A stretch of 64,000 bases of DNA from Bacteroidota bacterium (GTDB lineage Bacteria; Bacteroidota; Bacteroidia; UKL13-3), in the NCBI GenBank assembly GCA_947460345.1, contig CANHGM010000013.1, forward strand, positions 18,610 to 82,609, in the 5' to 3' direction. Under the pieces are notes generated by a model. That model made no database searches and was not told the origin of the DNA. It was given only the letters and a program-made list of their open reading frames with translations. Both the position numbers and the translations under genes were made by a program. Below, piece by piece: positions 6,301 through 58,614 of this stretch (position 1 is its first letter; the number at the start of each line of letters is the position of its first letter).

Positions 6301-9300
6301 TATCAACCACATGACCAGCCGAGGGGTCTGGATATATTGCTGGATTTGGACATATATTAGAATATGCTGTGAGTTTTGTTACATATACATCATAGGTACT
6401 TCCTGGAGTACTTGAATAATAAGTGTGATTTGACAAATTGGTGTTGTTGGTACTACCATCTCCATAGTCAAACACTTTACTCACTATATTATAACTTTGA
6501 TCTGTAAAAGAAACAAGTAAAGGTTCACAACCAATAGTTTTATTTATTTTGTATTTAGGAACAGGGCCTACAAATTGTATATAACAGTTTTTAGTAAGCG
6601 TATCTTGGCAACCGTTTGCATTTATTGCTATTAGGCTTACATCAAAACAAGAGTCATTGGTTCTATATAAATTATCAGTAGAATCTGTAAAGACATTTTT
6701 GGTATTCCCGTCTCCAAAATTCCAAATATGATACGAGGCATTTTTTGAACTTGAAACAAATTTAACAAACTTTGGTGCACACTGATTTAATGTATCTGCT
6801 AATTTTACAACACTGAATTTAGGTATCACTCTTTCTATACATATATATTGGCTAATGGTATCCCAACATGCACCTTTCCAAGCTTTCATAGTAACCAAAT
6901 AACAACCTGAATCAGGGAAAGAAATGCCAGGAGATGAAGCTGAAAAGCCAGCTGATGTAGAATCAAAAATTACTTTTTTAGATGCAGTTGAAGGCACTGC
7001 AGACCAAGTATAATTGTTAGGGAAATTTTGTGAAGTATTAGTCACTTGCACTTTGGTTTTATAACATGCAGTAGTAGGAATGGAGAATCCGGCTGTTAGA
7101 CCAATAGATATCATGGAAGTTTTGGTAACTGTTTGCGAACAACCAGTTAACGTATCTGTAATTGTAAGTGATATATCATAAACCCCATTGACCCCAAATG
7201 TAATATTAGTACTAGCTGCTTTATAGTTTGCTATTGTAACACCTGTCGTAGGGCTTACTACCCATTCATATTTCATTGCTTTAACTGCAGTTGCTGGATG
7301 TATATTCTTCACAGACATACTATCAAACTTAATAGTTGACCCTTTACATCCTGAAGCTGAGGCAGATTTGAAACCAAAGTCCATGCTATTTACACATACA
7401 GAATCTACTTTCACCAAACTATCTTTACACAAAGCACTAGAGGAGCTTTTGGCTACATAAGCAATTGAATAACAACCTGGAACAGTAAAAGTGAACGACC
7501 CACTCGAACCTATAAAATAATTATTCGGATCCCATGTAGTACTATCATGATGCTTATAATAAAATTTATGCACTAGGGTTCCGATTTTAGGAGTGGTGGC
7601 TTCTGTGAATGTAACACTTGAGTTTACACATATACTTTTATTATCCATTAAAAAGTTTGCTTTAGGAGGTGCAATGGTAATAGTATCAAATGTGGTATCT
7701 AAACAACCTCCATCGGTCCACGAAATCATTCTACCTAAATACCTACCAGTATCACAATATCTGTATTGAGTAGTATCGAAAGAGAATTGTGCTTTAGTTG
7801 CATTTATGGTATCATGCTTTAATACCATTGTTGTATCTAATTTATTGTATAATGTTATCCAAATCCTTATTGAGTCACTTGAGTAATTGCCAGAATTATT
7901 TTTCCAAATTACTTTCTCACAAGTACAAAATCTTTTACTAGTATTGTTAGTATTTAATGAATCTCTAAAAACAAAAGCTAACTTAGGTCTTTTCAAATTA
8001 AAAAAAGAGGCATTTGTTACTGAATCTATACAACCAAATGTAGAACTAGAATCAATTAACCTTACAGTGTATTGACCAAACTTAGTAAGCATAATGCTCA
8101 AAGTATCCATATTCAGTTTTTGACTTGTTGCCGAAATTACCCCAGTGCTATCACTCACTATCCATCTAAAAAAGTTGTTAGTCCCTGGCGTTGTTTTTGT
8201 GTCATTATTAGCTTTAAACAGAGTAGGACTGCTACAGTTAGATTTAATTTTTGCAGAAAACTGTGTTACAGGGCCGACCATTCTAAATGGAATTTCTCTA
8301 GTACTACTGCATCCATTGTAACTAAACTTTGCAACCATTTTATAATTTGCTATAGTACTAAAATTAACTCTAAAAGAATCATTCCCATAAGAATATGCAT
8401 TTAAAGAACCAAGACATGCCCAACTCATAGTTCCTGAAGCTGGCAAACCTGATGTTACATTAGTAAATTTAGCATACTGTCTGTTGCAAAGAGTTGAATC
8501 ATCTATAGCTATATTTAATATAAATGTATCTCCAACATTTATATAATTTGTTTTAGTTAAATCATATGTACAACCAACAGAAGTTGTTATTTTAAGCGAA
8601 GCATCAAATGCTCCTGCATTAACATAAGATATTGTATCAGGTGCAGATGTTGTATCAGTTGATGGGCTGCCCCCATTAAATGTCCAATTATATTTTGTTA
8701 CTGTATTCCCATTTAAATTGATGCTAGGAGAAAATTTTGTCTTAAAAGCTTTACATCCTGAAGTAGGTGAAGCATTAAAATCAACAGTTGAAGCATTATA
8801 CACAAATACAGCAGTATCATATTTTTTATATAATTGACAACTATCTCCTTGACTAGTTAATAGTACTTCAACCTTTTTAGGGCCTGTAGAATTAAATTTA
8901 TGTCTAATAATAGGGCTATTATTGTTATAAGTTACTCCATCTATAATCCAAATTCTACTCACAATACCAGGGGTACTATCAATAATTGAAACTGAATCAG
9001 GTCCACTACATAAAATATTGGGAACAAAAGAAATTTTTGGTTGTTGCCCAACACCCGCTCTTACTATACTGTCTCTATTGATGGTACAAACAATTGCTCC
9101 TAAGTTATTGATTAACTCAACTTTCACATTGTAGTATCCTGAAGAAGTTAATACTGTTGAAAAGGTATCCGCCGAACTTGTAATACCCGTTGCATTTCCA
9201 ACGTAGTATTTAAAAACCATCCCTCCTGGATATCCGCCTACTTTGATTTTTAACTTGTAAGGCAAACATGAACTATCCTTATCTACAAAATAAGTATATT

Positions 9301-9463
9301 TTACATTTCCTGCTCCAATGCTATCTTTAGCTACTTGTAGCGTAACACTTCCGCATTGTGAATTTGCTCTATTAGAGGCAAACAAAGCCACTATTATTAT
9401 AACCAAAGCTTTAGTTAAAGTGTGTATATATCTCTTCATACTTTTATTGTAAATTTTTAACAT
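3341..9463 (-). CDS. Giant (2040 aa) secreted adhesin-like protein with a PKD-domain array and a T9SS type B C-terminal sorting domain (gliding-motility-associated CTD)
   Basis: The C-terminus carries the type-B CTD signature IFIPNAFSPDGKGPGQNEVFKP...FRVYNRWGEVVFET...WDGTFKGKPSPADVYAFTVRARGRDG. Many PKD-like repeats with W-D/N-FGDG cores (WDFGDGTTDTV, WDFGDATTST, WEFGDATFDT, WNFGDGNTKN). The N-terminal signal probably starts at the internal MKRYIH Met, about 9 codons into the ORF. Confidence 0.8.
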   Translation of the reverse strand: MLKIYNKSMKRYIHTLTKALVIIIVALFASNRANSQCGSVTLQVAKDSIGAGNVKYTYFVDKDSSCLPYKLKIKVGGYPGGMVFKYYVGNATGITSSADTFSTVLTSSGYYNVKVELINNLGAIVCTINRDSIVRAGVGQQPKISFVPNILCSGPDSVSIIDSTPGIVSRIWIIDGVTYNNNSPIIRHKFNSTGPKKVEVLLTSQGDSCQLYKKYDTAVFVYNASTVDFNASPTSGCKAFKTKFSPSINLNGNTVTKYNWTFNGGSPSTDTTSAPDTISYVNAGAFDASLKITTSVGCTYDLTKTNYINVGDTFILNIAIDDSTLCNRQYAKFTNVTSGLPASGTMSWACLGSLNAYSYGNDSFRVNFSTIANYKMVAKFSYNGCSSTREIPFRMVGPVTQFSAKIKSNCSSPTLFKANNDTKTTPGTNNFFRWIVSDSTGVISATSQKLNMDTLSIMLTKFGQYTVRLIDSSSTFGCIDSVTNASFFNLKRPKLAFVFRDSLNTNNTSKRFCTCEKVIWKNNSGNYSSDSIRIWITLYNKLDTTMVLKHDTINATKAQFSFDTTQYRYCDTGRYLGRMISWTDGGCLDTTFDTITIAPPKANFLMDNKSICVNSSVTFTEATTPKIGTLVHKFYYKHHDSTTWDPNNYFIGSSGSFTFTVPGCYSIAYVAKSSSSALCKDSLVKVDSVCVNSMDFGFKSASASGCKGSTIKFDSMSVKNIHPATAVKAMKYEWVVSPTTGVTIANYKAASTNITFGVNGVYDISLTITDTLTGCSQTVTKTSMISIGLTAGFSIPTTACYKTKVQVTNTSQNFPNNYTWSAVPSTASKKVIFDSTSAGFSASSPGISFPDSGCYLVTMKAWKGACWDTISQYICIERVIPKFSVVKLADTLNQCAPKFVKFVSSSKNASYHIWNFGDGNTKNVFTDSTDNLYRTNDSCFDVSLIAINANGCQDTLTKNCYIQFVGPVPKYKINKTIGCEPLLVSFTDQSYNIVSKVFDYGDGSTNNTNLSNHTYYSSTPGSTYDVYVTKLTAYSNICPNPAIYPDPSAGHVVDTIKVFKKSVAYFYSDTLDACEPWCVQFHDTSKYAQTWYWDFGDGTTDTVRNPQHCYAPGTYNVKLKVNNQAGCGDSMYKASYITVRARSKAAFAVNDSVKCASITSNFTDKSTNASIYNWDFGDATTSTTKNPSHTFSPGKYTIKLVTSNAYGCKDSISKDTLIRVFEKSVPKIYCNITSGCEPFSTQVFGDSSLYADSFYWVVTKGATIVSMSNQKNPNFSLTPGTYSVRLYTNNINGCIDSSLKANYITVFNRAKPSFTSNDTLGCDTIFSAFTNTSSFATKYRWEFGDATFDTINTNTSHGYGVGSYNVMLWANNINNCADSITKNAKVLVVNKPKPKIYSFYTKGCEPFETDLYGDSTLYANSYYWILGNTNIQNVKNPKESYPPGIYTVKLIASNSYGCLDSINMPNYITVFRKPTADFMADNQWLCFKQPVNFTDLSLSDVAITDWDWDFGDFTNDISSAPAPHIYQIPGSKTVTLKINNSNGCKDTLVLSNYIYMDDSIPPAATQIQYVSYNNGNIDIFWEQNLDTTFFQNKLYRDDPNNTTPPGINVFSSNIATDIYYQETPPAVDPTTTVYAYSLTTADSCGWVSLPGTEHRNMVLTAASLAPMTNIVTWTPYVGWGNQLKEYQIWKGALGTGQPNPVFDLYRTVSPNDTSMIDSLLCDSDYHYQIYAIHKSQTWQSLSNPAMNHAPFISPDTIVTVIRTTVIDDKYVLTNWLPSNHPAIKRYIIDKYDDTKGWQNYYAFTKSNLTSFIDVNDVDVHIRDYTYRVNVEDYCGNVSPLSSEIGRSILFDASIDNDYVVLKWKPYQYWNYGVRDYLIQILYPGNDWRKVAVVPSTDTSYTDNNVYEDLYTNYCYRVVAIENDVLPDTSISNIDCAVVPSRIFIPNAFSPDGKGPGQNEVFKPTSLSLYSKFEGDDINDYVFRVYNRWGEVVFETHDASKGWDGTFKGKPSPADVYAFTVRARGRDGFPYDMNGNLQLMR

Positions 9464-32047: not shown

Positions 32048-35000
32048 TTATTTAATATCAACTATTCTTAATGAAAGTGTTTCTCCATTTGCTGTTAAGC
32101 GAATAGTATATACACCGCCAGATAACTGATTTCCAGTATTAATTGGTAACTGATAATTTCCTGCAGATTGTTTTGCGTTAAGCAAAGTAGCGATTTTTCT
32201 GCCTGTGATATCAAAGATTTCAATATTAATTAATGAAGATTCTGTTATCGTGTAATTCAATGTAGTATTTCCATTGTATGGATTTGGATATACTTCAATT
32301 CCATTTACTGAAGTTGAAATGCTTTGAATATTGCTATTGATTACAGTTGAAGTTGAACTGCTATCTTTACAAGAATTAGTATTTGTTACAATTAATTTTA
32401 CATTATATGTACCATTAGTTGCATAAATATGAATTGGGTTTTGTTGTGAGCTATTTGAAGCGTCTCCAAAGTCCCAATTATATGAATTCCCAGCAGCAAC
32501 ATCTGTTGCAGTAAATTGAACATTAGTACTTAAGCTTTGCAAACGTGATGAAGTGAATGCACCACTCGGAGCTGTTAATAATGATATTTTAATACTATCT
32601 CTTGAAACACAACCATTAGCATCTGTTACATCTACAAAATAAGTTCCAGCTGTATTTACTGAAATAGATTGAGTTGAAGCTCCAGTATTCCAAGCAAATT
32701 GTGAACCTTGACCTGCATCAATTGAAGCAGATGTACCAGGACAGTAACCTTTATCTGCACCTAAATTAACAGGCGTAACATTAAATATACTTACGTTAGC
32801 TGTATCAGAATTAACACAACCATTTGCATCTGTAACTTTTACCCAAACTGAACCAGCAGTTGAAGTAGAGAATGTAGAACTTGACGTTCCATCACTCCAT
32901 AAATATGAACTATAAGAACCGCCATTGAAATTTGCACTTGAATTTGGACAAATAGTTTGGTCACTTATAGAAGGTTTAGGTAAAGCGTTTACTTTAATAA
33001 AACGAGAAACAACTGTGTCACATCCTACTGCACTATCTTTTACTGATATCATTATAATATATATAGAGTCCGCTTCAGCATTTGTAGGAGAGAATGTTAA
33101 GGTTGCATTGGAAGCACCAGGTGCAGATACCGAATATGTTCCTAATGATGGTGTTGTTCCATTGATAGTTGCAATTGATAATGATTTAATAATCCATGTT
33201 GTACCAAAACCACCATTACCAAATTGCGTTGGTGGAGTTAATTCATATTTAACAGAACTACCAATACATACACCATCAGGATTTCCTGAGGTTCCATTAT
33301 TAAAATTACCATTATATGGATTGCCTTTAATAATACTTACACCCATTGGAGCAGGTGTGAATGCTACCGATATACTACCATTTCCTGAACAACCACCTGG
33401 AGTGATAACGTCAACTGAATAGTTACCTGCGTTCGTTACATTTATTTTTTGAGTTGTATCTCCAGTATTCCATAAATATTTATATCCAGCACCAAAGTTA
33501 CCTGCATCTAATGATACACTAGTTCCACCGCAAGCTGTAATATTTGAACCCAAATTAACTGTAGGGGCAGTATAAATATTTACTTGAATTGAATCTGTTG
33601 AGGTTAATCCAGTTATAAAATCAGTGATAGTTGCATAGTATAAACCAGTTGCATATGTATTTAATGTATCATATGTTGAACCTGTATTCCATTCTACTGA
33701 ATAATTAGCATTTGAAGTAGGATTTGCATTTAATAATACATCTGAACAACTAGAAGTATCAGGACCAAGATCAATAGTAGGTTTCTCAGCTATTAATACA
33801 TTGTCAATATCAACAAAATATGCAGTTGCTGAATTATCTATACTCAAGAATACTGCAGAAACATTACTACCTGCGTTATTTCCTAAATCATATACAAAAT
33901 CTTGGTATGAATTAAAATTAGTGTTATTAGAATTGATATTGAAAACTTGATTAAATGTTTTACCACAATCGAACGTCAAATAAACTGCTATCGAATCGTC
34001 TTGACCTAACTGAGAAGAAGCTCTGTAGCTAAATTTGAATACAGATTTCGAAGTTAATGGACCTACAATTGGAGTATTACCAAATGCAACTGGTCTTGCA
34101 GCTGTCATATTTGCTCTTAAGCATCTTGTTCCACCTACTCCTGTAATAGCAGAAGTTATCAAGTTGTTTGAAGTATAAGAAGCAGGAATATTAGCTGCTG
34201 TATTGAAATCTTCAATATAATCTTGTGTAATTGGTTGAACGGTATTGATGGTGAATTTAGAAGTATCGTTAAATGCATCGCTATCACCAGCAGTAACTGC
34301 ATAAATTAAGAAATCATATGAACTAGCTAAGCTGCTCAAATCTAATGTACCAGCAAAGTTTACTGTCATTGTATCATTAGGTGCCATAATTCCACTTGTG
34401 ATAATTGTATCTAAAGTTGCTGTAGTTCCTCCAGAAACATTTACTGTTACTTGTAAATTATGAACTGAGAAATCTAAAGTATCTGTACCAACATTTTCTA
34501 ATAAAACAGAAACTGGTTCTGCATTACTATAACAAGCATAGTCACCAGGTGCCGTAACACTTCTAATTCCAGCATCAATTGCGAAAGGATTAATCAATAT
34601 AATATCATAATCTTCAGTTTCACCAAAAGTAGCAGAAGCACAAGGATCAATATTAGTATTGTTAAATACTTCTCTTACTCTTAATATATTATATCCAGAA
34701 GTAACTCCTGTTGGAATTGTAAATGTGATACTTCCAGCGGTATTAGCTGCCATGTTATTTAGTTGTCCAAGTTTTTCACTAGCTTCAAATGTACCATTTA
34801 AGTTATAATCTATCCATGCAGCTATATTGTTTCCTGCACCATTATATGAACCAGGAGCCACATCTAATGAATATGTTTGACCAATTAACAAAGGAGAACC
34901 AGCACCTGAATAATAGTTATAATAAGGAGCCGCAGAAGCACCAGTTTGATTATTAATAGCATTAGCTAAAACTACACTAGAAATAAAATCGCCAGATCCA

Positions 35001-36733
35001 GAACCAGTAGTGTAAGTTGGCTTACAATAGCAATCAGCAATTTTCTTAGTGATAACTGTTACAGTACTTGAAGTATCAGTGTTTCCAGAACAAGTAATAT
35101 AACAACGGTATGATAAGTTTGAAGATTGAGTTGTAGCAAATGATGCTTTGGTTGCACCAGTTATATTAGTCCATGAAGTACCATTGCTAGAAGATTGCCA
35201 TTGATACGTTTGACCATTACCATAAGTATTTGAATTTAATGACAAATTGAAAACAGTAGCTGGACATACGCTATCTAATGAAGAAACTGCTGTACCTGCT
35301 GTAGGTGTTGCATTACATTGTGGTAGTCTGATGTAAACTAAATAATCTTCAGTTTCACCATATCCATAGTTTCCACAAGAATTTACTAAAGCTGGATTAG
35401 TTGTTTCCATTAACACTACACGTAATCTTGTAACACCATTTTCAGCACTTGATGGAATAAGAACAGAATCTCCAACTACATTACCGTAGGCAACAGTTGC
35501 TCGGCTATATGTTCTTTGTAACATTACTCTTTCAGAGCTTTCGTCAAATTGGCCATCTTGGTTATAATCTATATAAACTTTAGCATGGCAAGTATAGAAA
35601 GTAGCAGATGAATTGATTTGTGTAACTTGCATAAAATACTTTGAATTTGCATCAAAAGTATCAGGCGTCAAATTAGTGAAATCACTATATGTATTTACTG
35701 AAGTACTATTTGATAATGCAGGTAGAGAATCTAATCCATTTGAGAAATTTCCAAATATAAATCTTCCGATATCATCATCTAATGTACTGTTAGATGCTGA
35801 TTTGCAATAACAATTATAAAATGGATTTAAATATATTAGTTTAGATGATGCTGTATCAGCACTTCCGCTACATTCTGTATAAAATCTGTAGTAAGTATCT
35901 GCAGTTATTGAAACAGTTAACGTTTTTTTAGTTGCACCATTGATATTTGTCCAAGTAGTTCCATCGCTAGATGATTGCCATTGAAATGTTTGACCACTTC
36001 CAAAAGTACCACCTGAAACAGATAAATTTAAATTAATACCTGGGCAGATAGAATCTTTTTGACTAAAAACCGAACCAGCTGTAGGTGTACCTGAACACGG
36101 AGCCAATGTATCAATGGTAACTGTATAGTCATGTGCCATACCTGAACCCATAGCTAAACAAGCATCTCCTGAACCATTTTGATTTCCAGATAAACGAGTT
36201 CTAACTCTCATTCCTGTTTGACCTAACAAAGCATTAGCAGGAACTGTTATAGTATTTGTAGCTGCTTGATTTGCAGTACTAGAGGTAGTTATTTGAACCC
36301 ACTCAGAAGCATCAAAAGTACCACTTTGATCATAGTCAATCCAAACTGACATGATAGCTGAAGAACTTGAGGTTACACTAATTGTGTATGTGTTGAAATT
36401 AGTTGTTCTGTATAAGGTTGCGGTAGTATTACCGTTAGCACTATATGAATTTGTTCTACTCACACCATTACAGGTAGATACAGAATTATCCAAAGTTGTA
36501 CCTTGAATATTCACATTGGTAATCATGTCAGCTGTTGAACAGTTACCTCCATTGGTATGTGAGGCTGTACAATACTGAGCATTTGAAAAATTTGCAGTTA
36601 TTAAAACAAACATACATGCCATGAGCATTTTGTTGAGTGTTGTCCTAATTAACTTGCTTCTAAAAATAGAGTAATTAATTTTCATTTGTATTTTTATTAA
36701 ATTATAGGGTCTACAAAGGTAACTATAACTCAA
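32048..36733 (-). CDS. Large (1561 aa) secreted surface protein with GEVED motifs, a PKD domain and a T9SS type A C-terminal sorting domain
   Basis: C-terminal type-A CTD (EVYPNPYNGNTTLNYTI...GGVYTIRLTANGETLSLRIVDIK). GETEDY motifs at two sites (GYGETEDYLVYI, TFGETEDYDIIL). PKD core YNWDFGDASNSSQQNPIHIY. Duplicated module ...QWQSSSDGTTWTNINGATK... / ...QWQSSSNGTSWTNITGATK.... Probable true start at the internal MKINYS Met (about 36688), which gives a signal peptide. Confidence 0.8.
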   Translation of the reverse strand: MSYSYLCRPYNLIKIQMKINYSIFRSKLIRTTLNKMLMACMFVLITANFSNAQYCTASHTNGGNCSTADMITNVNIQGTTLDNSVSTCNGVSRTNSYSANGNTTATLYRTTNFNTYTISVTSSSSAIMSVWIDYDQSGTFDASEWVQITTSSTANQAATNTITVPANALLGQTGMRVRTRLSGNQNGSGDACLAMGSGMAHDYTVTIDTLAPCSGTPTAGSVFSQKDSICPGINLNLSVSGGTFGSGQTFQWQSSSDGTTWTNINGATKKTLTVSITADTYYRFYTECSGSADTASSKLIYLNPFYNCYCKSASNSTLDDDIGRFIFGNFSNGLDSLPALSNSTSVNTYSDFTNLTPDTFDANSKYFMQVTQINSSATFYTCHAKVYIDYNQDGQFDESSERVMLQRTYSRATVAYGNVVGDSVLIPSSAENGVTRLRVVLMETTNPALVNSCGNYGYGETEDYLVYIRLPQCNATPTAGTAVSSLDSVCPATVFNLSLNSNTYGNGQTYQWQSSSNGTSWTNITGATKASFATTQSSNLSYRCYITCSGNTDTSSTVTVITKKIADCYCKPTYTTGSGSGDFISSVVLANAINNQTGASAAPYYNYYSGAGSPLLIGQTYSLDVAPGSYNGAGNNIAAWIDYNLNGTFEASEKLGQLNNMAANTAGSITFTIPTGVTSGYNILRVREVFNNTNIDPCASATFGETEDYDIILINPFAIDAGIRSVTAPGDYACYSNAEPVSVLLENVGTDTLDFSVHNLQVTVNVSGGTTATLDTIITSGIMAPNDTMTVNFAGTLDLSSLASSYDFLIYAVTAGDSDAFNDTSKFTINTVQPITQDYIEDFNTAANIPASYTSNNLITSAITGVGGTRCLRANMTAARPVAFGNTPIVGPLTSKSVFKFSYRASSQLGQDDSIAVYLTFDCGKTFNQVFNINSNNTNFNSYQDFVYDLGNNAGSNVSAVFLSIDNSATAYFVDIDNVLIAEKPTIDLGPDTSSCSDVLLNANPTSNANYSVEWNTGSTYDTLNTYATGLYYATITDFITGLTSTDSIQVNIYTAPTVNLGSNITACGGTSVSLDAGNFGAGYKYLWNTGDTTQKINVTNAGNYSVDVITPGGCSGNGSISVAFTPAPMGVSIIKGNPYNGNFNNGTSGNPDGVCIGSSVKYELTPPTQFGNGGFGTTWIIKSLSIATINGTTPSLGTYSVSAPGASNATLTFSPTNAEADSIYIIMISVKDSAVGCDTVVSRFIKVNALPKPSISDQTICPNSSANFNGGSYSSYLWSDGTSSSTFSTSTAGSVWVKVTDANGCVNSDTANVSIFNVTPVNLGADKGYCPGTSASIDAGQGSQFAWNTGASTQSISVNTAGTYFVDVTDANGCVSRDSIKISLLTAPSGAFTSSRLQSLSTNVQFTATDVAAGNSYNWDFGDASNSSQQNPIHIYATNGTYNVKLIVTNTNSCKDSSSTSTVINSNIQSISTSVNGIEVYPNPYNGNTTLNYTITESSLINIEIFDITGRKIATLLNAKQSAGNYQLPINTGNQLSGGVYTIRLTANGETLSLRIVDIK

Positions 36734-51868: not shown

Positions 51869-53098
51869 TTATTCTAACTTCTTGCAATGGAAGCACTTCA
51901 AATTTTTGTAATGGTCTTCTACAAAAAACAAATAATCATCCCCTCCTTCTTTTAGTTTAAGTTTATTATATAATTCAATCGGATTTAATTTAAAATTTCT
52001 TCTGGAAATATTAGCTTTACTAATTCCATTAGTTTTAAAATAGTTCATCAATTCTTTCGGTTTAAAATCTAATATATTTTCAATCTTAAATTTTCTTCCG
52101 AAGAATCCATATAATGGTTCTTCAAAAACCATATAAGGTATTTGTTCATGAACAAAATTCCCTTTTAACTCGTGAAAGTAATTTTTCCATAAACCACAAT
52201 GGATAAGGGAATGATTTGCCTCATAGAAATATTTTTCATTTTGACTATACACTTGAATGGAAGACCCTTCAACGTTTTCAGAAGTATATATATGCTCATA
52301 ATTCGAACTCAAATCTACAGCTAATATTTGCTTAGTTAATGATTTTGAATCAATAATTGCTAAGACTTCCTTCATTTCGTTTTTAACTGCTAAGCACCAA
52401 ACTTTAGTTACTGATGGAATCTGTCTAAAAACTTCCTTCACATCAAACAACGGACTTAATTTAATTATCATTGTATCAAATTTTCCCTCTAAAGTTGAAA
52501 TGATTTTAAAAATATCAGGTTGCATATGAAACAATGAATGAACTCTACTTTCAGAAATGGGTCTTCGGTCAGGATCTATATATATTACATCACAATAGTC
52601 AATAATATCTATTGCCTCTTCAGCACTTTTGTCAAATCTAGTAATATTTTTAATATTCAGTTTTATGTAATTTTCACGAACTAATTTATTTAACTCAAAG
52701 TCGATATCAAAAGAATATATATGTTCAAAATGTTTTGAAAAAGCCCAATCATCAATTCCAAGACCACCTGTTAAATCAAAAAGTGTTTTACCAGAAAAAT
52801 GATTACATTTCCAGACTGCTAACAATTCGGAAGTTGCTTGTTGATATGATTTTTCAGTAAAAAAACACCTGTGGTTAAAAAATGTTGGAAATTTATTTTC
52901 ACTTTTTTTAAGTAGCCCTAATTGAGTAATAAAAAACTGAAAATCAATGTCATTATGCTTATTTTTCAGTAAAGCTACTTTCCTTAAATCATCATTTAAA
53001 TATAAATTTGTAAGATAATTATATTTTTCTTTATTAATGATTTGCATATTTGGCCTAATTTTGTAGTCATATATTTGAAAGTTCACTATGAGGCTCAT
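51869..53098 (-). CDS. Hypothetical protein with a probable class I SAM-dependent methyltransferase core
   Basis: Motif-I-like LFDLTGGLGIDDWAFSKHF followed by an acidic-strand pattern (IYSFDID...). 409 aa. The true start may be the internal Met at MQIINKEKY (about 53047), which would remove the overlap with the divergent small ORF. Confidence 0.45.
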   Translation of the reverse strand: MSLIVNFQIYDYKIRPNMQIINKEKYNYLTNLYLNDDLRKVALLKNKHNDIDFQFFITQLGLLKKSENKFPTFFNHRCFFTEKSYQQATSELLAVWKCNHFSGKTLFDLTGGLGIDDWAFSKHFEHIYSFDIDFELNKLVRENYIKLNIKNITRFDKSAEEAIDIIDYCDVIYIDPDRRPISESRVHSLFHMQPDIFKIISTLEGKFDTMIIKLSPLFDVKEVFRQIPSVTKVWCLAVKNEMKEVLAIIDSKSLTKQILAVDLSSNYEHIYTSENVEGSSIQVYSQNEKYFYEANHSLIHCGLWKNYFHELKGNFVHEQIPYMVFEEPLYGFFGRKFKIENILDFKPKELMNYFKTNGISKANISRRNFKLNPIELYNKLKLKEGGDDYLFFVEDHYKNLKCFHCKKLE

Positions 53099-53267
53099 AT
53101 TTATATTTTTATGTTATATAGTTTTGATAGGTTTTGAAACTTCATGTGCACCACGCAAAGCTTCAAAATGTCCTGACTATAGTAACAGTCCTTCTAGGGT
53201 AAGATATAATAGAGATGGAACTGTAAAAAGCAAATATAAACCTCGTTTAATTAGAAAATCTTTATAA
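53088..53267 (+). CDS. Small ORF (59 aa): hydrophobic N-terminus then a Cys pair (…ETSCAPRKASKCPDY…) and a basic tail
   Basis: Not in the ORF track (below its size cutoff). ATG at 53088, TAA at 53265. Only 1 nt separates its stop from the next small ORF's ATG. Start overlaps the annotated start of the divergent 51869..53098 gene by 11 nt, so the reality of this ORF is uncertain. Confidence 0.3.
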   Translation: MRLIFIFLCYIVLIGFETSCAPRKASKCPDYSNSPSRVRYNRDGTVKSKYKPRLIRKSL

Positions 53268-53268
53268 A

Positions 53269-53388
53269 ATGAAAAAAAATAAACTTATAATCGCTATCGC
53301 TTTAGTAGCAGTTGTTTTAGGTACATCTTCTTGCCAAAAGAAAATTTGTCCTCATTTCAAATTGCAATCTATTGTCTCTGTTAAATAA
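53269..53388 (+). CDS. Small lipopeptide ORF (39 aa): textbook signal peptide plus Cys-pair MKKNKLIIAIALVAVVLGTSSC|QKKICPHFKLQSIVSVK
   Basis: Not in the ORF track. The lipoprotein-type signal ends in LGTSSC. The mature part is 18 aa with C-x5-CP. Its TAA stop is immediately followed by the ATG of the YtxJ-like gene (TAAATG at 53386-53391), which indicates translational coupling. Confidence 0.4.
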   Translation: MKKNKLIIAIALVAVVLGTSSCQKKICPHFKLQSIVSVK

Positions 53389-53754
53389 ATGAAATTTCAG
53401 CTACTTGAAAATCAAGACCAGCTGAACAATGCCATTAAACTGTCATTCGAAACACCTGTGCTTTTAATTAAGCATAGCGAGAGATGTAGCATTAGTAGAA
53501 TGGCCATATCTAGGCTTGAAAGAGATTGGGACTCCCAGTCTTTAATTTCGCCTTATTTGATAGAAGTTAGAGAACAAAGAGGCATTTCAGATGCAATTAC
53601 TCAAAACTTTTCTATCATACATCAATCACCTCAAATTTTATTAATAGAGAAAGGTAAGTGCGTTTATACTGAATCGCATAATGGAATTAATTTTCAAGAT
53701 ATTAAGTGTTCATCTTTAGCACAATATTCACAACTTCATGCTTTAAAAATTTAG
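53389..53754 (+). CDS. YtxJ-family thioredoxin-like protein (monothiol bacilliredoxin BrxC-like, DUF2847)
   Basis: 121 aa thioredoxin fold with the single-Cys motif ...LLIKHSERCSISRMA... (compare the TCPIS motif of YtxJ). No CxxC. Confidence 0.65.
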   Translation: MKFQLLENQDQLNNAIKLSFETPVLLIKHSERCSISRMAISRLERDWDSQSLISPYLIEVREQRGISDAITQNFSIIHQSPQILLIEKGKCVYTESHNGINFQDIKCSSLAQYSQLHALKI

Positions 53755-53801: not shown

Positions 53802-54212
53802 CTAATTAATAAAATTGAATCTAATATCTTGTTCAATTTCAGGGTGAAGACTTTTTGCAACAGGGCAAGTTTTTGCAGCATTTTCAAGAATAGCTTTTTC
53901 TTTATCAGTAAATTTAGATACAAAAGTAATTTCAGCTATAATTTTTATAATTCTTCTAGGGTCAGGAGCCATGATTTTTGTAATTTCAACAATTGTTCCA
54001 TCAAAACCAGAAATTTTATGCGTATTGCAAGCTATACCCATAATAGTAAACATGCAACTTCCAAGAGCTGCAGCAACTAAATCAGTAGGTGAAAACATTT
54101 CCCCTTTACCCTGATTGTCTTTCGGAGCATCAGTATAAATTACATTATCCGACTGAATATGAGTCGCTTCGGTTCTTAGCTCACCTAAATACTTAATTTT
54201 TGATGTTATCAT
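53802..54212 (-). CDS. OsmC/Ohr-family peroxiredoxin-like protein
   Basis: 136 aa with two conserved Cys (…AALGSCMFTIMG… and …AKTCPVAKS…) typical of OsmC. Confidence 0.8.
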   Translation of the reverse strand: MITSKIKYLGELRTEATHIQSDNVIYTDAPKDNQGKGEMFSPTDLVAAALGSCMFTIMGIACNTHKISGFDGTIVEITKIMAPDPRRIIKIIAEITFVSKFTDKEKAILENAAKTCPVAKSLHPEIEQDIRFNFIN

Positions 54213-54306: not shown

Positions 54307-54314
54307 TATATTTG
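54307..54314 (+). promoter_or_regulatory. Bacteroidota-type -7 promoter box (TATATTTG) upstream of lipA
   Basis: Exact TAnnTTTG match 13 nt upstream of the lipA ATG (54328). Implies a very short leader or a start slightly downstream. Confidence 0.25.
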
Positions 54315-54327
54315 CCTTTAAATACTG

Positions 54328-55215
54328 ATGATAGAGTTAACTGTTAATAATGAAACTGCTGGTAGGCCTAAAAAACCTGATTGGTTAAAAGTAAAATTGC
54401 CAACAGGTGAGAATTACAGGCATGTAAGAAAACTTGTTGACGAATATAAACTACATACCATTTGTGAAAGTGGAAATTGTCCGAATATGGGCGAATGCTG
54501 GGGAGCTGGTACGGCAACCTTTATGATTTTGGGGAATGTTTGTACTCGTTCATGTTCTTTTTGTGCAGTAGCCACAGGAAGACCAACTGAATATGATATA
54601 GATGAGCCAAGAAGAGTAGCAGAGGCAATAAAGTTAATGGAAGTAAAACATGCAGTTATCACGTCAGTTAACAGAGATGAATTGAAAGATAAAGGTGCAA
54701 CAGTTTGGGCTGATACTATTAGAATGGTAAAAGAAACAAGTCCTTCTACTACAATTGAAACATTAATACCTGATTTTAAATCAGAATGGGATTTACTTTA
54801 CAAAGTAATAGACGAGCAACCTGAAGTTGTATCTCACAATATGGAAACGGTGAAAAGACTTTATAAAAAAGTTCGTCCGCAAGCAAAATACGAAAGAAGC
54901 TTAGAACAAATTAGACTTACTAAAGAAAGAGGGTTAAGAACCAAATCTGGAATTATGTTAGGTCTTGGTGAAACTGACGAAGAAGTATTTGAAATCATGG
55001 ACGATTTAGCAGCAAATGGTTGTGATGTTTTAACAATAGGTCAGTATTTACAACCTACAAAAATGCATATAGCAGTTGAAGAGTTTATCCATCCTGATAA
55101 ATTTTTATATTACAAGCAAGTAGGATTATCAAAAGGTATAGAATATGTTGAATCAGGAGCATTAGTAAGGTCAAGCTATCATTCAGAAAAACATTTAAAA
55201 AAAGCAACTATTTAA
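54328..55215 (+). CDS. lipA: Lipoyl synthase
   Basis: Both cysteine clusters present: [13 protein letters not shown] (auxiliary 4Fe-4S) and [10 protein letters not shown] (radical-SAM CxxxCxxC). 295 aa. Confidence 0.9.
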
Positions 55216-58063: not shown

Positions 58064-58106
58064 AAAAGCCCATTAAGTAAAAATCTTAATGGGCTTTTTC
58101 TTTTTT
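58064..58106 (+). terminator. Rho-independent terminator after the BNR-repeat gene
   Basis: 12-bp stem aagcccattaag/cttaatgggctt with a 7-nt loop, followed by TTTTTCTTTTTT. Starts 14 nt after the stop. Confidence 0.65.
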
Positions 58107-58614
58107 GGAACGTATATTGTTTATATTTGTAAAAAAAATCACTTTAATGAAAAAAATACTTTTTGCATTTGCCATGTCAGGACTGTTAATTTTTAGCGGT
58201 TCATTTACAAAACCTTTAGAAGAATTAAAATGGTATGACTTTAATGAAGGATACCAAAAAGCTAAGAAAAACAAAAAAATTGCTTTAATAGATACATATA
58301 CTGATTGGTGTGGATGGTGCAAGAAAATGGATAGAGACACATACACCAAAAGTCAAATCATTGAAAAAATCAATAAAAATTTTGTACCTATTAAATTCAA
58401 TCCAGAAATAAAAGATATCAGATATACACTTGATGGAAAAGAATACAGTGGGATGGAACTTTTATCTGTTATTTCAAACAAACAACAATCAGGCTATCCT
58501 ACAACATTTTTTATAATAACTAAAAAGAATAGAGTAATGATAGAAGTTGGTTACCAAGATGCAACTCAGTTTTCAGCTACTTTAGATAAAATTTTGGCTG
58601 AATCTCAAAATTAA
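58105..58614 (+). CDS. Thioredoxin-fold protein with a WCGWC active site (DUF255/thioredoxin-7-like), secreted
   Basis: CxxC motif in YTDWCGWCKKMD. Probable true start at the ATG at 58147 (MKKILFAFAMSGLLIFSGSF signal peptide). The first 14 codons of the listed ORF overlap the upstream terminator. Confidence 0.75.
   Translation: MERILFIFVKKITLMKKILFAFAMSGLLIFSGSFTKPLEELKWYDFNEGYQKAKKNKKIALIDTYTDWCGWCKKMDRDTYTKSQIIEKINKNFVPIKFNPEIKDIRYTLDGKEYSGMELLSVISNKQQSGYPTTFFIITKKNRVMIEVGYQDATQFSATLDKILAESQN

What the first reader, a model, noticed from the sequence alone, without database searches (positions are those of the whole stretch)
53088..53754. Two tiny Cys-pair lipopeptide ORFs translationally coupled to a YtxJ-type monothiol thioredoxin-like gene
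Immediately upstream of the YtxJ-like gene lie two ORFs below the ORF-track cutoff. The 39-aa ORF has a textbook lipoprotein signal and an 18-aa mature part with C-x5-CP. Its TAA is directly abutted by the ytxJ ATG (TAAATG). A 59-aa ORF ends 1 nt before it and carries a similar SC…K…CP arrangement after a hydrophobic N-terminus. Stop-start coupling of three ORFs is unlikely by chance. Small secreted di-Cys peptides coupled to a thiol-redox protein could be substrates or partners in a redox relay. I do not recognise this arrangement as a described system.
Basis: partly seen in the sequence, partly recalled or inferred. Interest (0 to 1): 0.6.

Follow-up and report, generated by a model that had tools for sequence, protein, structure and literature searches.

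The report
Mini-lipoprotein genes coupled to bacilliredoxin BrxC
Two tiny genes in front of the thiol-repair gene ytxJ/brxC are real, and belong to a large, unannotated family of 20-40-residue membrane-anchored peptides with one conserved free cysteine that many Bacteroidota keep glued to that gene, which points to an undescribed partner of the bacillithiol redox system.

Summary
ORF1 (53088-53267, 59 aa), ORF2 (53269-53388, 39 aa) and ytxJ/brxC (53389-53754) follow each other with gaps of 1 and 0 nt. A Markov model of the window gives about 7e-6 for this by chance.

Both small ORFs are genes:
- A 96%-identical strain differs in ORF1 by 13 synonymous and 1 conservative codon.
- HMMs built without window sequences rank ORF1 and ORF2 first and second among 1571 six-frame segments.

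They belong to a large family with no Pfam or NCBIfam model (326 clusters at 50% identity). Its plan is a lipoprotein signal [LFVIM][ST]S-C, a basic linker (S-R-K-x), then G-C-P and a short tail.

Linkage to ytxJ is very tight. In 80 GTDB ytxJ loci, 15 of 16 motif ORFs lie directly upstream of ytxJ. Of 80 metagenome loci chosen only by the small ORF, 78 carry ytxJ 5-35 nt downstream, and the other 2 contigs end too early.

The "Cys pair" reading needs correction. The first Cys is the lipid-attachment site, so the mature peptide has one free thiol. ORF1's lipobox is atypical (Glu at -3).

Function is inferred: an exported lipid-anchored monothiol peptide co-produced with cytoplasmic BrxC for thiol/oxidative stress. 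I found no published description.

The parts
53056..53077 (+). Two Bacteroidota-type -7 promoter boxes (TAATTTTG 53056-53063, TATATTTG 53070-53077), 10-24 nt before the ORF1 ATG. Putative promoter of an ORF1-ORF2-ytxJ transcript.
   Evidence: Pattern TAnnTTTG. No further + strand match lies between 53127 and the ytxJ ATG. lipA has the same box 13 nt before its ATG (54307-54314). This is weak evidence: the motif is not enriched window-wide (122 found, 113 expected).
53088..53267 (+). ORF1, 59 aa: MRLIFIFLCYIVLIGFETSC-APRKASK-CP-DYSNSPSRVRYNRDGTVKSKYKPRLIRKSL. A long-type member of the family: hydrophobic signal, Cys20, basic 7-residue linker, Cys28-Pro, basic tail.
   Evidence: Against strain L088 it shows 13 synonymous and 1 nonsynonymous (T18S) codon differences, with 12 of 14 substitutions at third positions (P = 8e-5). 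It ranks first of 1571 window segments with a long-type HMM built without it (E = 5e-7), and second with the short-type HMM (E = 2e-3). It fails the canonical lipobox rule because of Glu at -3. Gene callers did not call it.
53269..53388 (+). ORF2, 39 aa: MKKNKLIIAIALVAVVLGTSSC-QKKI-CP-HFKLQSIVSVK. A short-type mini-lipoprotein with an 18-residue mature part and one free Cys.
   Evidence: It meets the PROSITE-type lipoprotein rule. It ranks first of 1571 segments with a family HMM built without it (E = 7.9e-5). The identical protein is called in 5 JGI contigs (P0107). Its stop abuts the ytxJ ATG.
53389..53754 (+). ytxJ/brxC, 121 aa: a cytoplasmic monothiol bacilliredoxin-type thioredoxin-fold protein with active-site Cys33 in HSERCSIS.
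   Evidence: PF11009 1.9e-32 and TIGR04019 4.7e-32, both above curated cut-offs. Cys33 is invariant in a 30-sequence alignment. There is no signal peptide (sequence).
53802..54212 (-). OsmC/Ohr-family peroxiredoxin gene, convergent with ytxJ. A conserved neighbour, given as context and not part of the operon.
   Evidence: PF02566 2.7e-12. The same ytxJ-OsmC(-) arrangement is found in 10 Cytophagales loci.
54328..55215 (+). lipA (lipoyl synthase), a conserved neighbour downstream. Given as context.
   Evidence: 70-76% identical lipA lies downstream of ytxJ in 15 Cytophagales loci, and the same holds in the Ekhidna loci.

Best explanation
ORF1 and ORF2 are two real, tandem genes for divergent members (a long type and a short type) of a large Bacteroidota family of mini-lipoproteins that no database annotates. 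They are transcribed and translated together with ytxJ/brxC.

Each precursor has four parts:
- an N-terminal signal peptide ending in a lipobox;
- a short Ser/Thr- and Lys/Arg-rich linker;
- one further, nearly invariant Cys, usually in G-C-P;
- a short tail.

The lipobox Cys is the lipid-attachment site. The exported product would therefore be a membrane-anchored peptide of about 18 residues (ORF2) or 40 residues (ORF1) that displays a single reactive thiol next to basic residues.

**Shown:** coding status, family membership, near-obligate linkage to ytxJ, and amino-acid-level selection on the mature part.

**Inferred:**
- The peptides are lipidated and face the periplasm. They lack the acidic surface-export signal known for Bacteroidota lipoproteins (my own knowledge).
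- Their conserved Cys is the functional group: a site for S-thiolation, disulfide formation or metal binding in the envelope.
- BrxC is co-produced because the same thiol/oxidative stress hits both compartments, or because BrxC keeps the two cysteines of the precursor reduced. The precursor is too short for anything but post-translational export, so it dwells in the cytoplasm before Lgt can lipidate it.
For: **Coding**
- ORF1 shows 13 synonymous and 1 nonsynonymous change between strains.
- The mature parts of family members are under amino-acid-level selection. L043 against L070 shows 12 synonymous and 0 nonsynonymous changes in 19 codons. L037 against L068 shows 10 and 3.

**Family**
- 55 hits in the word-indexed search.
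- 326 clusters at E <= 1e-3 in the full HMMER scan.
- Of 189 parsed members: Ser at -1 in 173; Cys-Cys gap mode 7; Pro after Cys2 in 160; Gly before Cys2 in 173; K/R in the linker in 185; exactly two Cys in the mature part in 180.
- 182 of 190 meet the lipoprotein rule.
- NCBIfam gives only weak matches, and only to the signal-peptide part of lipoprotein models.
- Non-circular HMMs put ORF1 and ORF2 at ranks 1 and 2 of 1571.

**Linkage to ytxJ**
- 15 of 16 motif ORFs among 2682 ORFs in 80 GTDB ytxJ loci lie directly upstream of ytxJ.
- 78 of 78 evaluable metagenome loci picked by the small ORF alone have ytxJ 5-35 nt downstream.
- Independent look-ups of P0101, P0088 and P0100 show the same pair, while the divergent neighbour changes (Mur ligase or RNase T there, THUMP methyltransferase here).
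- In Cytophagales, long-type members precede a basic secreted protein gene and ytxJ in L008, L031 and L051.

**Redox context**
- ytxJ-OsmC-lipA synteny.
- BrxC is a de-bacillithiolating monothiol redoxin (PMC8113031).
Against: - Nothing here shows lipidation, export, or any redox chemistry of the peptides.
- YtxJ is cytoplasmic and the mature peptides would be extracytoplasmic, so a direct partnership needs the precursor-stage model.
- ORF1 has Glu at -3 of the lipobox, not seen in 189 family members.
- The window ORFs are divergent. ORF2 has a 4-residue Cys-Cys gap; all but one of the 189 parsed members have 5-12. Both ORFs lack the Gly before Cys2.
- Most Flavobacteriales ytxJ loci, several Cytophagales loci and the Ekhidna loci have no such ORF.
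- Weak or long family members (P0113, P0115, P0122, P0126) are not next to ytxJ.
- Mature ORF1 shows no BLASTP alignment to mature P0122.
Confidence: 0.55

Rival explanations
1. The peptides are envelope mini-lipoproteins whose job is not redox. They could be a small accessory or stabilising subunit of an outer-membrane machine (as LptM is for LptDE), or a membrane-active pair like entericidin A/B. The link to ytxJ would then reflect only shared regulation, for example a stress regulon.
For: - Small lipoproteins with short conserved N-terminal mature motifs are known to act as machine subunits (LptM, PMC10567701).
- The tails are strongly conserved within subfamilies (EGIIH, TTNPRYFRG, GYVGYGxR, NPQSNYRFRG), which suggests a protein partner.
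- The window has two tandem small lipoprotein genes, as in ecnAB (my own knowledge).
Against: - No HMM membership. Entericidin B gives E = 0.012 for one member, on the signal region only. LptM gives E >= 0.2. PF13627 and PF08085 are not hit.
- The most conserved mature feature is the second Cys, present in essentially every parsed member.
- The 78/78 adjacency at 5-35 nt to a thiol redoxin is hard to explain by regulation alone.
Confidence: 0.2
2. The small ORFs are cis-acting leader peptides (upstream ORFs). What matters is their translation, not their product, and it sets the level of ytxJ expression.
For: - The ORFs always lie immediately upstream on the same strand.
- Stop and start abut or nearly abut in the window (0 nt) and in Chitinophaga (2-4 nt).
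- C-terminal residues up to the stop codon are conserved within subfamilies.
Against: - The whole mature part, and a canonical lipobox, are under strong amino-acid-level selection across hundreds of clusters.
- Members occur away from ytxJ.
- At 37-39 aa the chain is still largely inside the ribosome tunnel at termination, so export-sensing arrest of the SecM/MifM type cannot work (inference from established knowledge).
- The spacer to ytxJ is 5-35 nt and unconserved in most genomes.
- No structured RNA: fold z-score -0.13 and no Rfam match.
Confidence: 0.1
3. One reading: secreted (not lipidated) di-Cys peptides whose two cysteines form a redox-active pair, serving as substrate or relay partner of YtxJ.
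For: - Two Cys at a conserved spacing (mode 7).
- ORF1 and the L008 long type fail the canonical lipobox rule, so at least some members might keep both thiols.
- Tight genetic coupling to a thiol redoxin.
Against: - 182 of 190 members have a canonical lipobox with Cys1 at +1, which predicts thioether lipidation of Cys1.
- YtxJ lacks an export signal.
- BrxC is described as acting on S-bacillithiolated cytosolic proteins (PMC8113031).
Confidence: 0.1
4. Chance ORFs in an AT-rich 5' untranslated region of ytxJ.
For: - Gene callers skipped ORF1.
- ORF1 found no homologue in the word-indexed search.
Against: - 13:1 synonymous bias in ORF1.
- Markov-model probability of 7e-6.
- HMM ranks 1 and 2 of 1571.
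- Conserved synteny.
Confidence: 0.01

Closest known systems
BrxC/YtxJ monothiol bacilliredoxin (Pfam PF11009, TIGR04019; B. subtilis BrxC, PMC8113031)
   Same: The third gene is a full-length member: both HMMs score above their cut-offs, it has a single active-site Cys in x-C-S-I-S, and it has no signal peptide.
   Different: In B. subtilis ytxJ sits in the ytxGHJ stress operon (my own knowledge). No mini-lipoprotein partner turned up in the term searches of that paper or in the literature searches. Here, and in many Bacteroidota, ytxJ is preceded by mini-lipoprotein genes.
LptM (YifL) of Enterobacteriaceae, a ~6 kDa lipoprotein that promotes oxidative maturation of LptD (PMC10567701)
   Same: A very small lipoprotein whose conserved part is the lipobox plus a short N-terminal stretch of the mature chain containing Lys-Gly-Pro-like residues. 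Its function is connected to disulfide and thiol status in the envelope.
   Different: No sequence membership: NF047847 gives E >= 0.2 on the signal region only, and PF13627 is not hit. The family here has a near-invariant second Cys. LptM is conserved in Enterobacteriaceae, not Bacteroidota, and no link to ytxJ came up for it.
Entericidin A/B (tandem small lipoprotein genes; PF08085, NF007487)
   Same: Tandem genes for lipoproteins of roughly 40-50 aa. JGI labels some family members 'predicted small secreted protein', the name I recall for the COG that holds entericidins.
   Different: Only one family member gives a weak match (E = 0.012), confined to the signal region. As far as I recall, mature entericidins have no Cys beyond the lipobox. 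Most genomes here carry a single copy next to ytxJ.
PG1828 family lipoprotein (NCBIfam NF050142, 59-position model)
   Same: The best-scoring curated model for the family (10 of 17 members). It also describes a small Bacteroidota lipoprotein.
   Different: Scores are 17-19 bits against a cut-off of 50. The alignment covers profile positions 1-25 only, which is the signal peptide. Not a member.
Export-monitoring arrest peptides (SecM, MifM, VemP)
   Same: A small ORF with an N-terminal export signal, immediately upstream of and coupled to a downstream gene, with a conserved C-terminal end.
   Different: The downstream gene is not an export factor. The peptides are 37-59 aa, too short for force-sensing arrest. 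The family also occurs away from ytxJ.

Membership tests
BrxC/YtxJ (PF11009, TIGR04019) | HMM score above the curated cut-off over the full domain | tested here: met
   PF11009: 111.6 bits against 24.2, profile positions 2-102 of 102. TIGR04019: 110.1 bits against 77.25.
BrxC/YtxJ (PF11009, TIGR04019) | Single conserved active-site Cys in the K-H-S-x-x-C-S-I-S motif | tested here: met
   HSERCSIS in the window. K28, H29, S30, C33 and S36 are invariant in the 30-sequence alignment A2.
BrxC/YtxJ (PF11009, TIGR04019) | Co-occurrence with bacillithiol biosynthesis genes (bshA/B/C), and de-bacillithiolation activity | not testable with these tools
   Only 64 kb of the genome is available, and no bsh gene was seen among the ORFs scanned. 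Activity needs biochemistry.
Bacterial lipoprotein signal (PROSITE PS51257-type rule: K/R in the first 7 residues, uncharged h-region, [LIVMFWSTAG]2-[LIVMFYSTAGCQ]-[AGS]-C, Cys at position 15-35) | ORF2 satisfies the rule | tested here: met
   MKKNKLIIAIALVAVVLGTSS-C22. Only 3 of 192 window ORFs satisfy the rule, and 182 of 190 family members do. The rule was written from my own knowledge of PROSITE.
Bacterial lipoprotein signal (PROSITE PS51257-type rule: K/R in the first 7 residues, uncharged h-region, [LIVMFWSTAG]2-[LIVMFYSTAGCQ]-[AGS]-C, Cys at position 15-35) | ORF1 satisfies the rule | tested here: not met
   The sequence is ...IGFETS-C20, with Glu at -3. The strain variant has FESSC. 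The long-type relative in L008 also fails; those in L031 and L051 pass.
Bacterial lipoprotein signal (PROSITE PS51257-type rule: K/R in the first 7 residues, uncharged h-region, [LIVMFWSTAG]2-[LIVMFYSTAGCQ]-[AGS]-C, Cys at position 15-35) | Actual Lgt/Lsp processing and lipidation | not testable with these tools
   No SignalP or LipoP is available here. It needs globomycin, lipid labelling or mass spectrometry.
   Short-type HMM (40 sequences): ORF2 E = 7.9e-5 (rank 1), ORF1 E = 2.1e-3 (rank 2), next segment 0.036. Long-type HMM (7 sequences): ORF1 5.2e-7, ORF2 4.7e-5, next 0.28. The database was 1571 six-frame segments of the window.
   ORF1 has a gap of 7 (the family mode), K/R present, Pro present, but Lys instead of Gly. 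ORF2 has a gap of 4 (all but one of 189 parsed members have 5-12), K/R present, Pro present, but Ile instead of Gly. In the family, Gly is found in 173 of 189 and Pro in 160 of 189.
   Window gaps are 0 nt (ORF2) and 121 nt (ORF1, with ORF2 between). In the family: 15 of 16 motif ORFs in GTDB loci, and 78 of 78 evaluable metagenome loci.
Entericidin (PF08085 / NF007487) | HMM match beyond the signal peptide, above the cut-off | tested here: not met
   No Pfam hit at E <= 10. NF007487 gives 15.3 bits against a cut-off of 94 for one member, residues 5-28 only.
LptM (PF13627 / NF047847) | HMM match to the lipobox plus the conserved mature N-terminus | tested here: not met
   NF047847 gives E 0.2-0.48, residues 1-21 only. 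PF13627 is not among the hits.
SecM/MifM/VemP-type monitoring leader peptides | Downstream gene encodes an export or insertion factor, and the chain is long enough for the signal to emerge while the arrest motif sits in the tunnel | tested here: not met
   The downstream gene is brxC. The peptides are 37-59 aa. The tunnel-length argument comes from established knowledge and was not computed.

The most novel reading that the evidence does not exclude
BrxC in Bacteroidota has a dedicated, genetically coupled peptide client. The mini-prolipoprotein is S-bacillithiolated, or otherwise oxidised, on its two basic-flanked cysteines while it waits in the cytoplasm. BrxC resets it so that Lgt can lipidate Cys1. 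The exported lipopeptide then displays a single reactive thiol in the envelope, acting as a lipid-anchored low-molecular-weight thiol, redox sentinel or metal ligand. This would be the first bacilliredoxin-client module and a new way of placing a thiol buffer outside the cytoplasm.
Probability: 0.15. Interest if true: 0.8.

Novelty: new variant of a known kind. Interest (0 to 1): 0.62.

Why it matters
Bacilliredoxins are known mainly from Firmicutes, and almost nothing is known of the bacillithiol system in Bacteroidota. A small gene that sits 0-35 nt in front of brxC in essentially every genome carrying its EGIIH-type form (78 of 78 evaluable loci) is a strong functional lead.

It gives three concrete things:
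- a candidate partner or client to test by deletion, Cys-to-Ser mutants and thiol trapping;
- several hundred sequence clusters of 30-90-aa proteins that have no Pfam or NCBIfam model, many of which gene callers miss (ORF1 is not called in any of the strain contigs);
- a possible route by which cells place a defined thiol on the envelope side of the membrane.

It also shows that, in the loci examined, ytxJ in Chitinophagales and in some Cytophagales is not transcribed alone.

Tried and rejected
- **ORF1 in the word-indexed protein search:** no candidate. ORF2 was too short for that tool.
- **Window YtxJ alone against GTDB genomes and metagenomes:** no close relative. The lineage is poorly sampled. 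P0002 (76% identity) sits on an 888-bp contig with only 36 nt upstream and no DNA available.
- **L001:** identical to the window, so uninformative.
- **Ekhidna, the closest named YtxJ at 56%:** has a 400-nt gap upstream but no family ORF.
- **Pfam and NCBIfam on both ORFs and on 17 family members:** only sub-threshold matches, to signal-peptide regions.
- **BLASTP of mature ORF1 against mature P0122:** no alignment. Membership of ORF1 rests on HMMs, not on pairwise similarity.
- **Rfam, at gathering threshold for the whole window and at E <= 1 for 52950-53450:** nothing. RNA folding z-score was -0.13. The riboregulator idea is rejected.
- **Sigma-70 promoter and terminator scan:** fewer promoter-like sites than in shuffles, and no terminator between the ORFs.
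- **Bacteroidota -7 motif:** present before ORF1 but not enriched window-wide, so kept only as a weak hint.
- **Two long repeat proteins hit by the family profile (P0158, P0250):** these are summed matches to G-C-P-containing repeats of large surface proteins, not relatives.
- **P0118:** a weak hit (E = 0.16) inside a phage-like gene string. Judged unrelated.
- **First simulation script:** timed out. It was rerun in vectorised form.
- **Structure prediction:** not used. The mature peptides are 18-40 residues, and complexes cannot be submitted.
Full report
**1. Observation**

- ORF1: 53088-53267, 59 aa.
- One spacer base at 53268.
- ORF2: 53269-53388, 39 aa.
- ytxJ: starts at 53389, directly after ORF2's TAA (TAAATG), and ends at 53754.

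ytxJ is a clear BrxC/YtxJ protein. PF11009 gives 1.9e-32 and TIGR04019 gives 4.7e-32, both far above their curated cut-offs. Its active-site Cys33 in HSERCSIS is invariant in a 30-sequence alignment.

One detail is wrong: ORF2 is C-x4-CP, not C-x5-CP.

Chance was estimated with a first-order Markov model of the window (GC 32%). One abutting ORF of at least 39 codons has probability 1.1e-3. The two-ORF chain has probability 7e-6.

**2. Both small ORFs are coding**

Five JGI contigs (L088-L092) carry a strain about 96% identical to the window.
- ORF1 shows 14 substitutions, 12 of them at third codon positions (binomial P = 8e-5). That is 13 synonymous codon changes and one conservative change, T18S.
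- ORF2 has one synonymous change.
- ytxJ itself has 4 synonymous and 4 non-synonymous changes.

ORF1 is therefore under stronger purifying selection than its annotated neighbour, although no gene caller reported it. ORF2 is called by JGI and stored as P0107.

The region matches no Rfam family, even at E <= 1, and folds no better than shuffled sequence (z = -0.13).

**3. A family emerges from synteny**

I fetched 80 ytxJ loci from GTDB species representatives and listed the small ORFs upstream of ytxJ.

Fifteen Chitinophagales loci carry a 37-52-aa ORF just before ytxJ. The genera include Ginsengibacter, Hanamia, Sediminibacterium, Segetibacter, Chitinophaga and Flavihumibacter. A typical sequence is MKKLLVMLLVATLLVFTVSSCSSSRKTGCPMAEGIIH.

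As a control, a regular expression (signal peptide, Cys, 2-9 residues, C[PK]) was run over all 2682 ATG-ORFs of at least 20 aa in those loci, on both strands. It hit 16 ORFs.
- 15 are these ORFs directly upstream of ytxJ.
- The 16th (L051) lies 1 kb upstream on the same strand.

A profile of these sequences found 55 proteins in the word-indexed database. None has a Pfam domain. They are named "hypothetical" or "predicted small secreted protein".

A full HMMER scan of 1.84 billion cluster representatives found 326 clusters at E <= 1e-3, almost all 31-90 aa long.

**4. Anatomy of the family**

Statistics come from 189 parsed members.

| Feature | Result |
|---|---|
| Position -3 | L/F/V/I/M in 171 |
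| Position -2 | S/T/A in 165 |
| Position -1 | Ser in 173 |
| Meets a PROSITE-type lipoprotein rule | 182 of 190 |
| Residues between the two Cys | mode 7 (range 5-12, apart from one member parsed with 1) |
| K/R between the two Cys | 185 |
| Consensus before Cys2 | S-R-K-[TS]-G |
| Gly before Cys2 | 173 |
| After Cys2 | Pro in 160, Lys in 21 |
| Exactly two Cys from the lipobox Cys onward | 180 |
| Mature length | median 20 residues |

Tails fall into subfamilies...CPM[TS]EGIIH...CPTTNPRYFRG...C[KA]xTxGYVGYGxR...CPxNPQSNYRFRG...KPFRA. There is also a longer type of 56-107 aa with a basic tail (for example P0122, P0191, P0269).

Curated NCBIfam models match only weakly, and only over the signal peptide: PG1828 family, BamK, entericidin B, LptM.

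Conservation is at the protein level. In the mature part, L043 against L070 shows 12 synonymous and 0 non-synonymous codon differences. L037 against L068 shows 10 and 3.

**5. The window ORFs are members, tested without circularity**

- An HMM of 40 short-type members, without the window sequences, was searched against all 1571 stop-to-stop segments of at least 20 aa in the window. It ranks ORF2 first (E = 7.9e-5) and ORF1 second (2.1e-3). The next segment scores 0.036.
- An HMM of seven long-type members ranks ORF1 first (5.2e-7) and ORF2 second (4.7e-5). The next scores 0.28.

So ORF1 is a long-type member and ORF2 a short-type member. Both are divergent:
- ORF2 has only 4 residues between the cysteines, and Ile instead of Gly before Cys2.
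- ORF1 has Lys instead of Gly before Cys2, and Glu at -3 of the lipobox. It therefore fails the lipoprotein rule that ORF2 passes.
- Pairwise BLASTP of mature ORF1 against a long-type member finds nothing.

**6. Linkage to ytxJ, tested in reverse**

I scanned metagenome contigs with a pattern taken only from the small ORF ([GT]CP[MG]x[EQ][GKR]II[HR]). This returned 80 loci.
- 73 have a ytxJ ORF starting 5-35 nt downstream (median 19).
- tblastn adds five more, three of which are cut by the contig end.
- The last two contigs end 95-220 nt after the small ORF.
- In total, 78 of 78 evaluable loci carry ytxJ.

Independent look-ups of P0101, P0088 and P0100 show the same pair. The divergent upstream gene varies: Mur ligase or RNase T there, a THUMP-like methyltransferase in the window.

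The unit that is conserved is therefore small ORF plus ytxJ.

The link is not universal.
- Weak or long members P0113, P0115, P0122 and P0126 lie elsewhere. P0122 and P0126 sit between an ABC substrate-binding protein gene and a radical-SAM gene.
- None of the Flavobacteriales ytxJ loci, nor the Ekhidna loci, has such an ORF upstream of ytxJ.

**7. Where the window fits**

The window is Bacteroidota: it carries T9SS sorting domains and a PorP/SprF protein.

Its ytxJ-OsmC(-)-lipA(+) arrangement is shared with Cytophagales loci, 10 with OsmC and 15 with lipA.

In those Cytophagales the gene directly upstream of ytxJ is a very basic secreted repeat protein. It has 19-29% K+R, a C-terminus of the form ...KPRYDKxExEIW, and no Pfam match. 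In L008, L031 and L051 a long-type mini-lipoprotein precedes it, with motifs ACKNTGAVCPG..., ACNQKARCPAY... and SCRSRAIPCPSF....

The window has a long-type ORF1 followed by a short-type ORF2 in place of the basic protein. I saw this combination nowhere else.

**8. Mechanism**

Shown:
- Three same-strand genes with 1-nt and 0-nt spacers.
- No + strand Bacteroidota -7 box between 53127 and ytxJ, but two just before ORF1 (weak evidence).
- No terminator between the genes.

Inferred: one transcript and coupled translation.

The lipobox makes Cys1 the diacylglyceryl attachment site. The mature ORF2 peptide (CQKKICPHFKLQSIVSVK) then has one free thiol. The same holds for ORF1 if it is processed in the same way.

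Basic residues next to a Cys generally lower its pKa (established chemistry). The conserved S-R-K-x-G-C-P would therefore be a reactive thiolate.

BrxC removes bacillithiol from S-bacillithiolated cytosolic proteins (PMC8113031).

Two ways to connect the peptides with BrxC fit the data:
- Parallel defence: a lipid-anchored sacrificial or sensing thiol in the envelope, and BrxC in the cytoplasm.
- A client relationship at the precursor stage: a 37-59-aa precursor can only be exported post-translationally, and Lgt needs a free Cys1 thiol.

Neither was tested. I put about 0.9 on "real genes, family members, operon with brxC" and about 0.4 on "thiol-based function connected to BrxC".

**9. Rivals**

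- Leader-peptide regulation is disfavoured by the protein-level selection, the canonical lipobox, the members found away from ytxJ, and the short length.
- A non-redox role, LptM-like or entericidin-like, cannot be excluded. However, it ignores the near-invariant second Cys and the 78/78 linkage.
- The dithiol reading conflicts with the lipobox, but stays open for ORF1-like members with a poor lipobox.
- Chance is excluded.

**10. Novelty**

The family has no Pfam (2025) or NCBIfam (June 2026) model.

Full-text searches for YtxJ with lipoprotein, for DUF2847, for YtxJ/bacillithiol/Bacteroidetes, and for small lipoproteins in Bacteroidetes found no description.

Small lipoproteins are a known kind. 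A family defined by a second conserved Cys and tied to a bacilliredoxin gene is a new variant of that kind.

Noticed in passing
L008:1102-2484, L051:1483-2496, L024:1234-2499, L031:1661-2440 and 9 further Cytophagales loci: In Cytophagales the gene directly upstream of ytxJ (gap -35 to +60 nt) is a secreted, extremely basic repeat protein of 259-824 aa. It has 19-29% K+R, Y-x-G-[DN]-I repeats and a conserved C-terminus ...KPRYDKxExEIW. It has no Pfam match. This looks like another uncharacterised ytxJ-linked family.
   Followed up: partly
window 53088-53267 compared with 53269-53754: Between the window and strain L088, ORF1 carries 14 substitutions in 180 nt (7.8%), almost all synonymous. ORF2 has 1 in 120 and ytxJ has 8 in 366. 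This is a local excess of silent divergence, possibly a recombination patch, and it is unexplained.
   Followed up: partly
window 53731: In strains L088-L090 a C-to-T change turns codon 115 of ytxJ into a stop, giving 114 aa instead of 121. The C-terminal tail beyond the BrxC domain therefore seems dispensable. L091 carries a much more divergent ytxJ from about 53450 onward, while ORF1 and ORF2 are the same as in L088.
   Followed up: partly
window 53047-53098 (- strand): The longest ORF of the THUMP-like methyltransferase (51869-53098) overlaps the ORF1 start by 11 nt. JGI calls the gene from the internal Met (392 aa, start about 53047). That leaves about 40 nt between the divergent genes, and a - strand -7 box lies inside ORF1 at 53231-53238. 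The divergent promoters probably overlap the ORF1 coding region.
   Followed up: partly
L093:1842-2027 and L094:3001-3186: The long-type members P0122 and P0126 (61 aa, CQRKSGCPATENAQVKTNRKG...LFPK) sit between an ABC-type substrate-binding protein gene and a 432-aa radical-SAM gene. This second context recurs, in two different contigs.
   Followed up: no
L098:2501-2632: P0118, a 43-aa lipoprotein-like ORF (…LTSCATSKFNNCPSVQKRF…), lies in a string of short same-strand genes that includes a phage P22-like domain. It is found on 16 contigs. It may be a phage small lipoprotein, and is probably unrelated.
   Followed up: no
window 58105-58614 (+): A 169-aa thioredoxin-like protein with DsbD/DsbH-type matches (E 1e-7 to 2e-11, below cut-offs) lies 4.3 kb downstream of ytxJ. 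Together with OsmC and lipA it makes the neighbourhood rich in thiol and peroxide genes.
   Followed up: no
window 1-64000: No Rfam family, not even a tRNA, reaches gathering score anywhere in the 64 kb. Nearly all long ORFs from 59 to 47218 are on the - strand, including a 2040-aa ORF (3341-9463) and a 1561-aa ORF (32048-36733).
   Followed up: no
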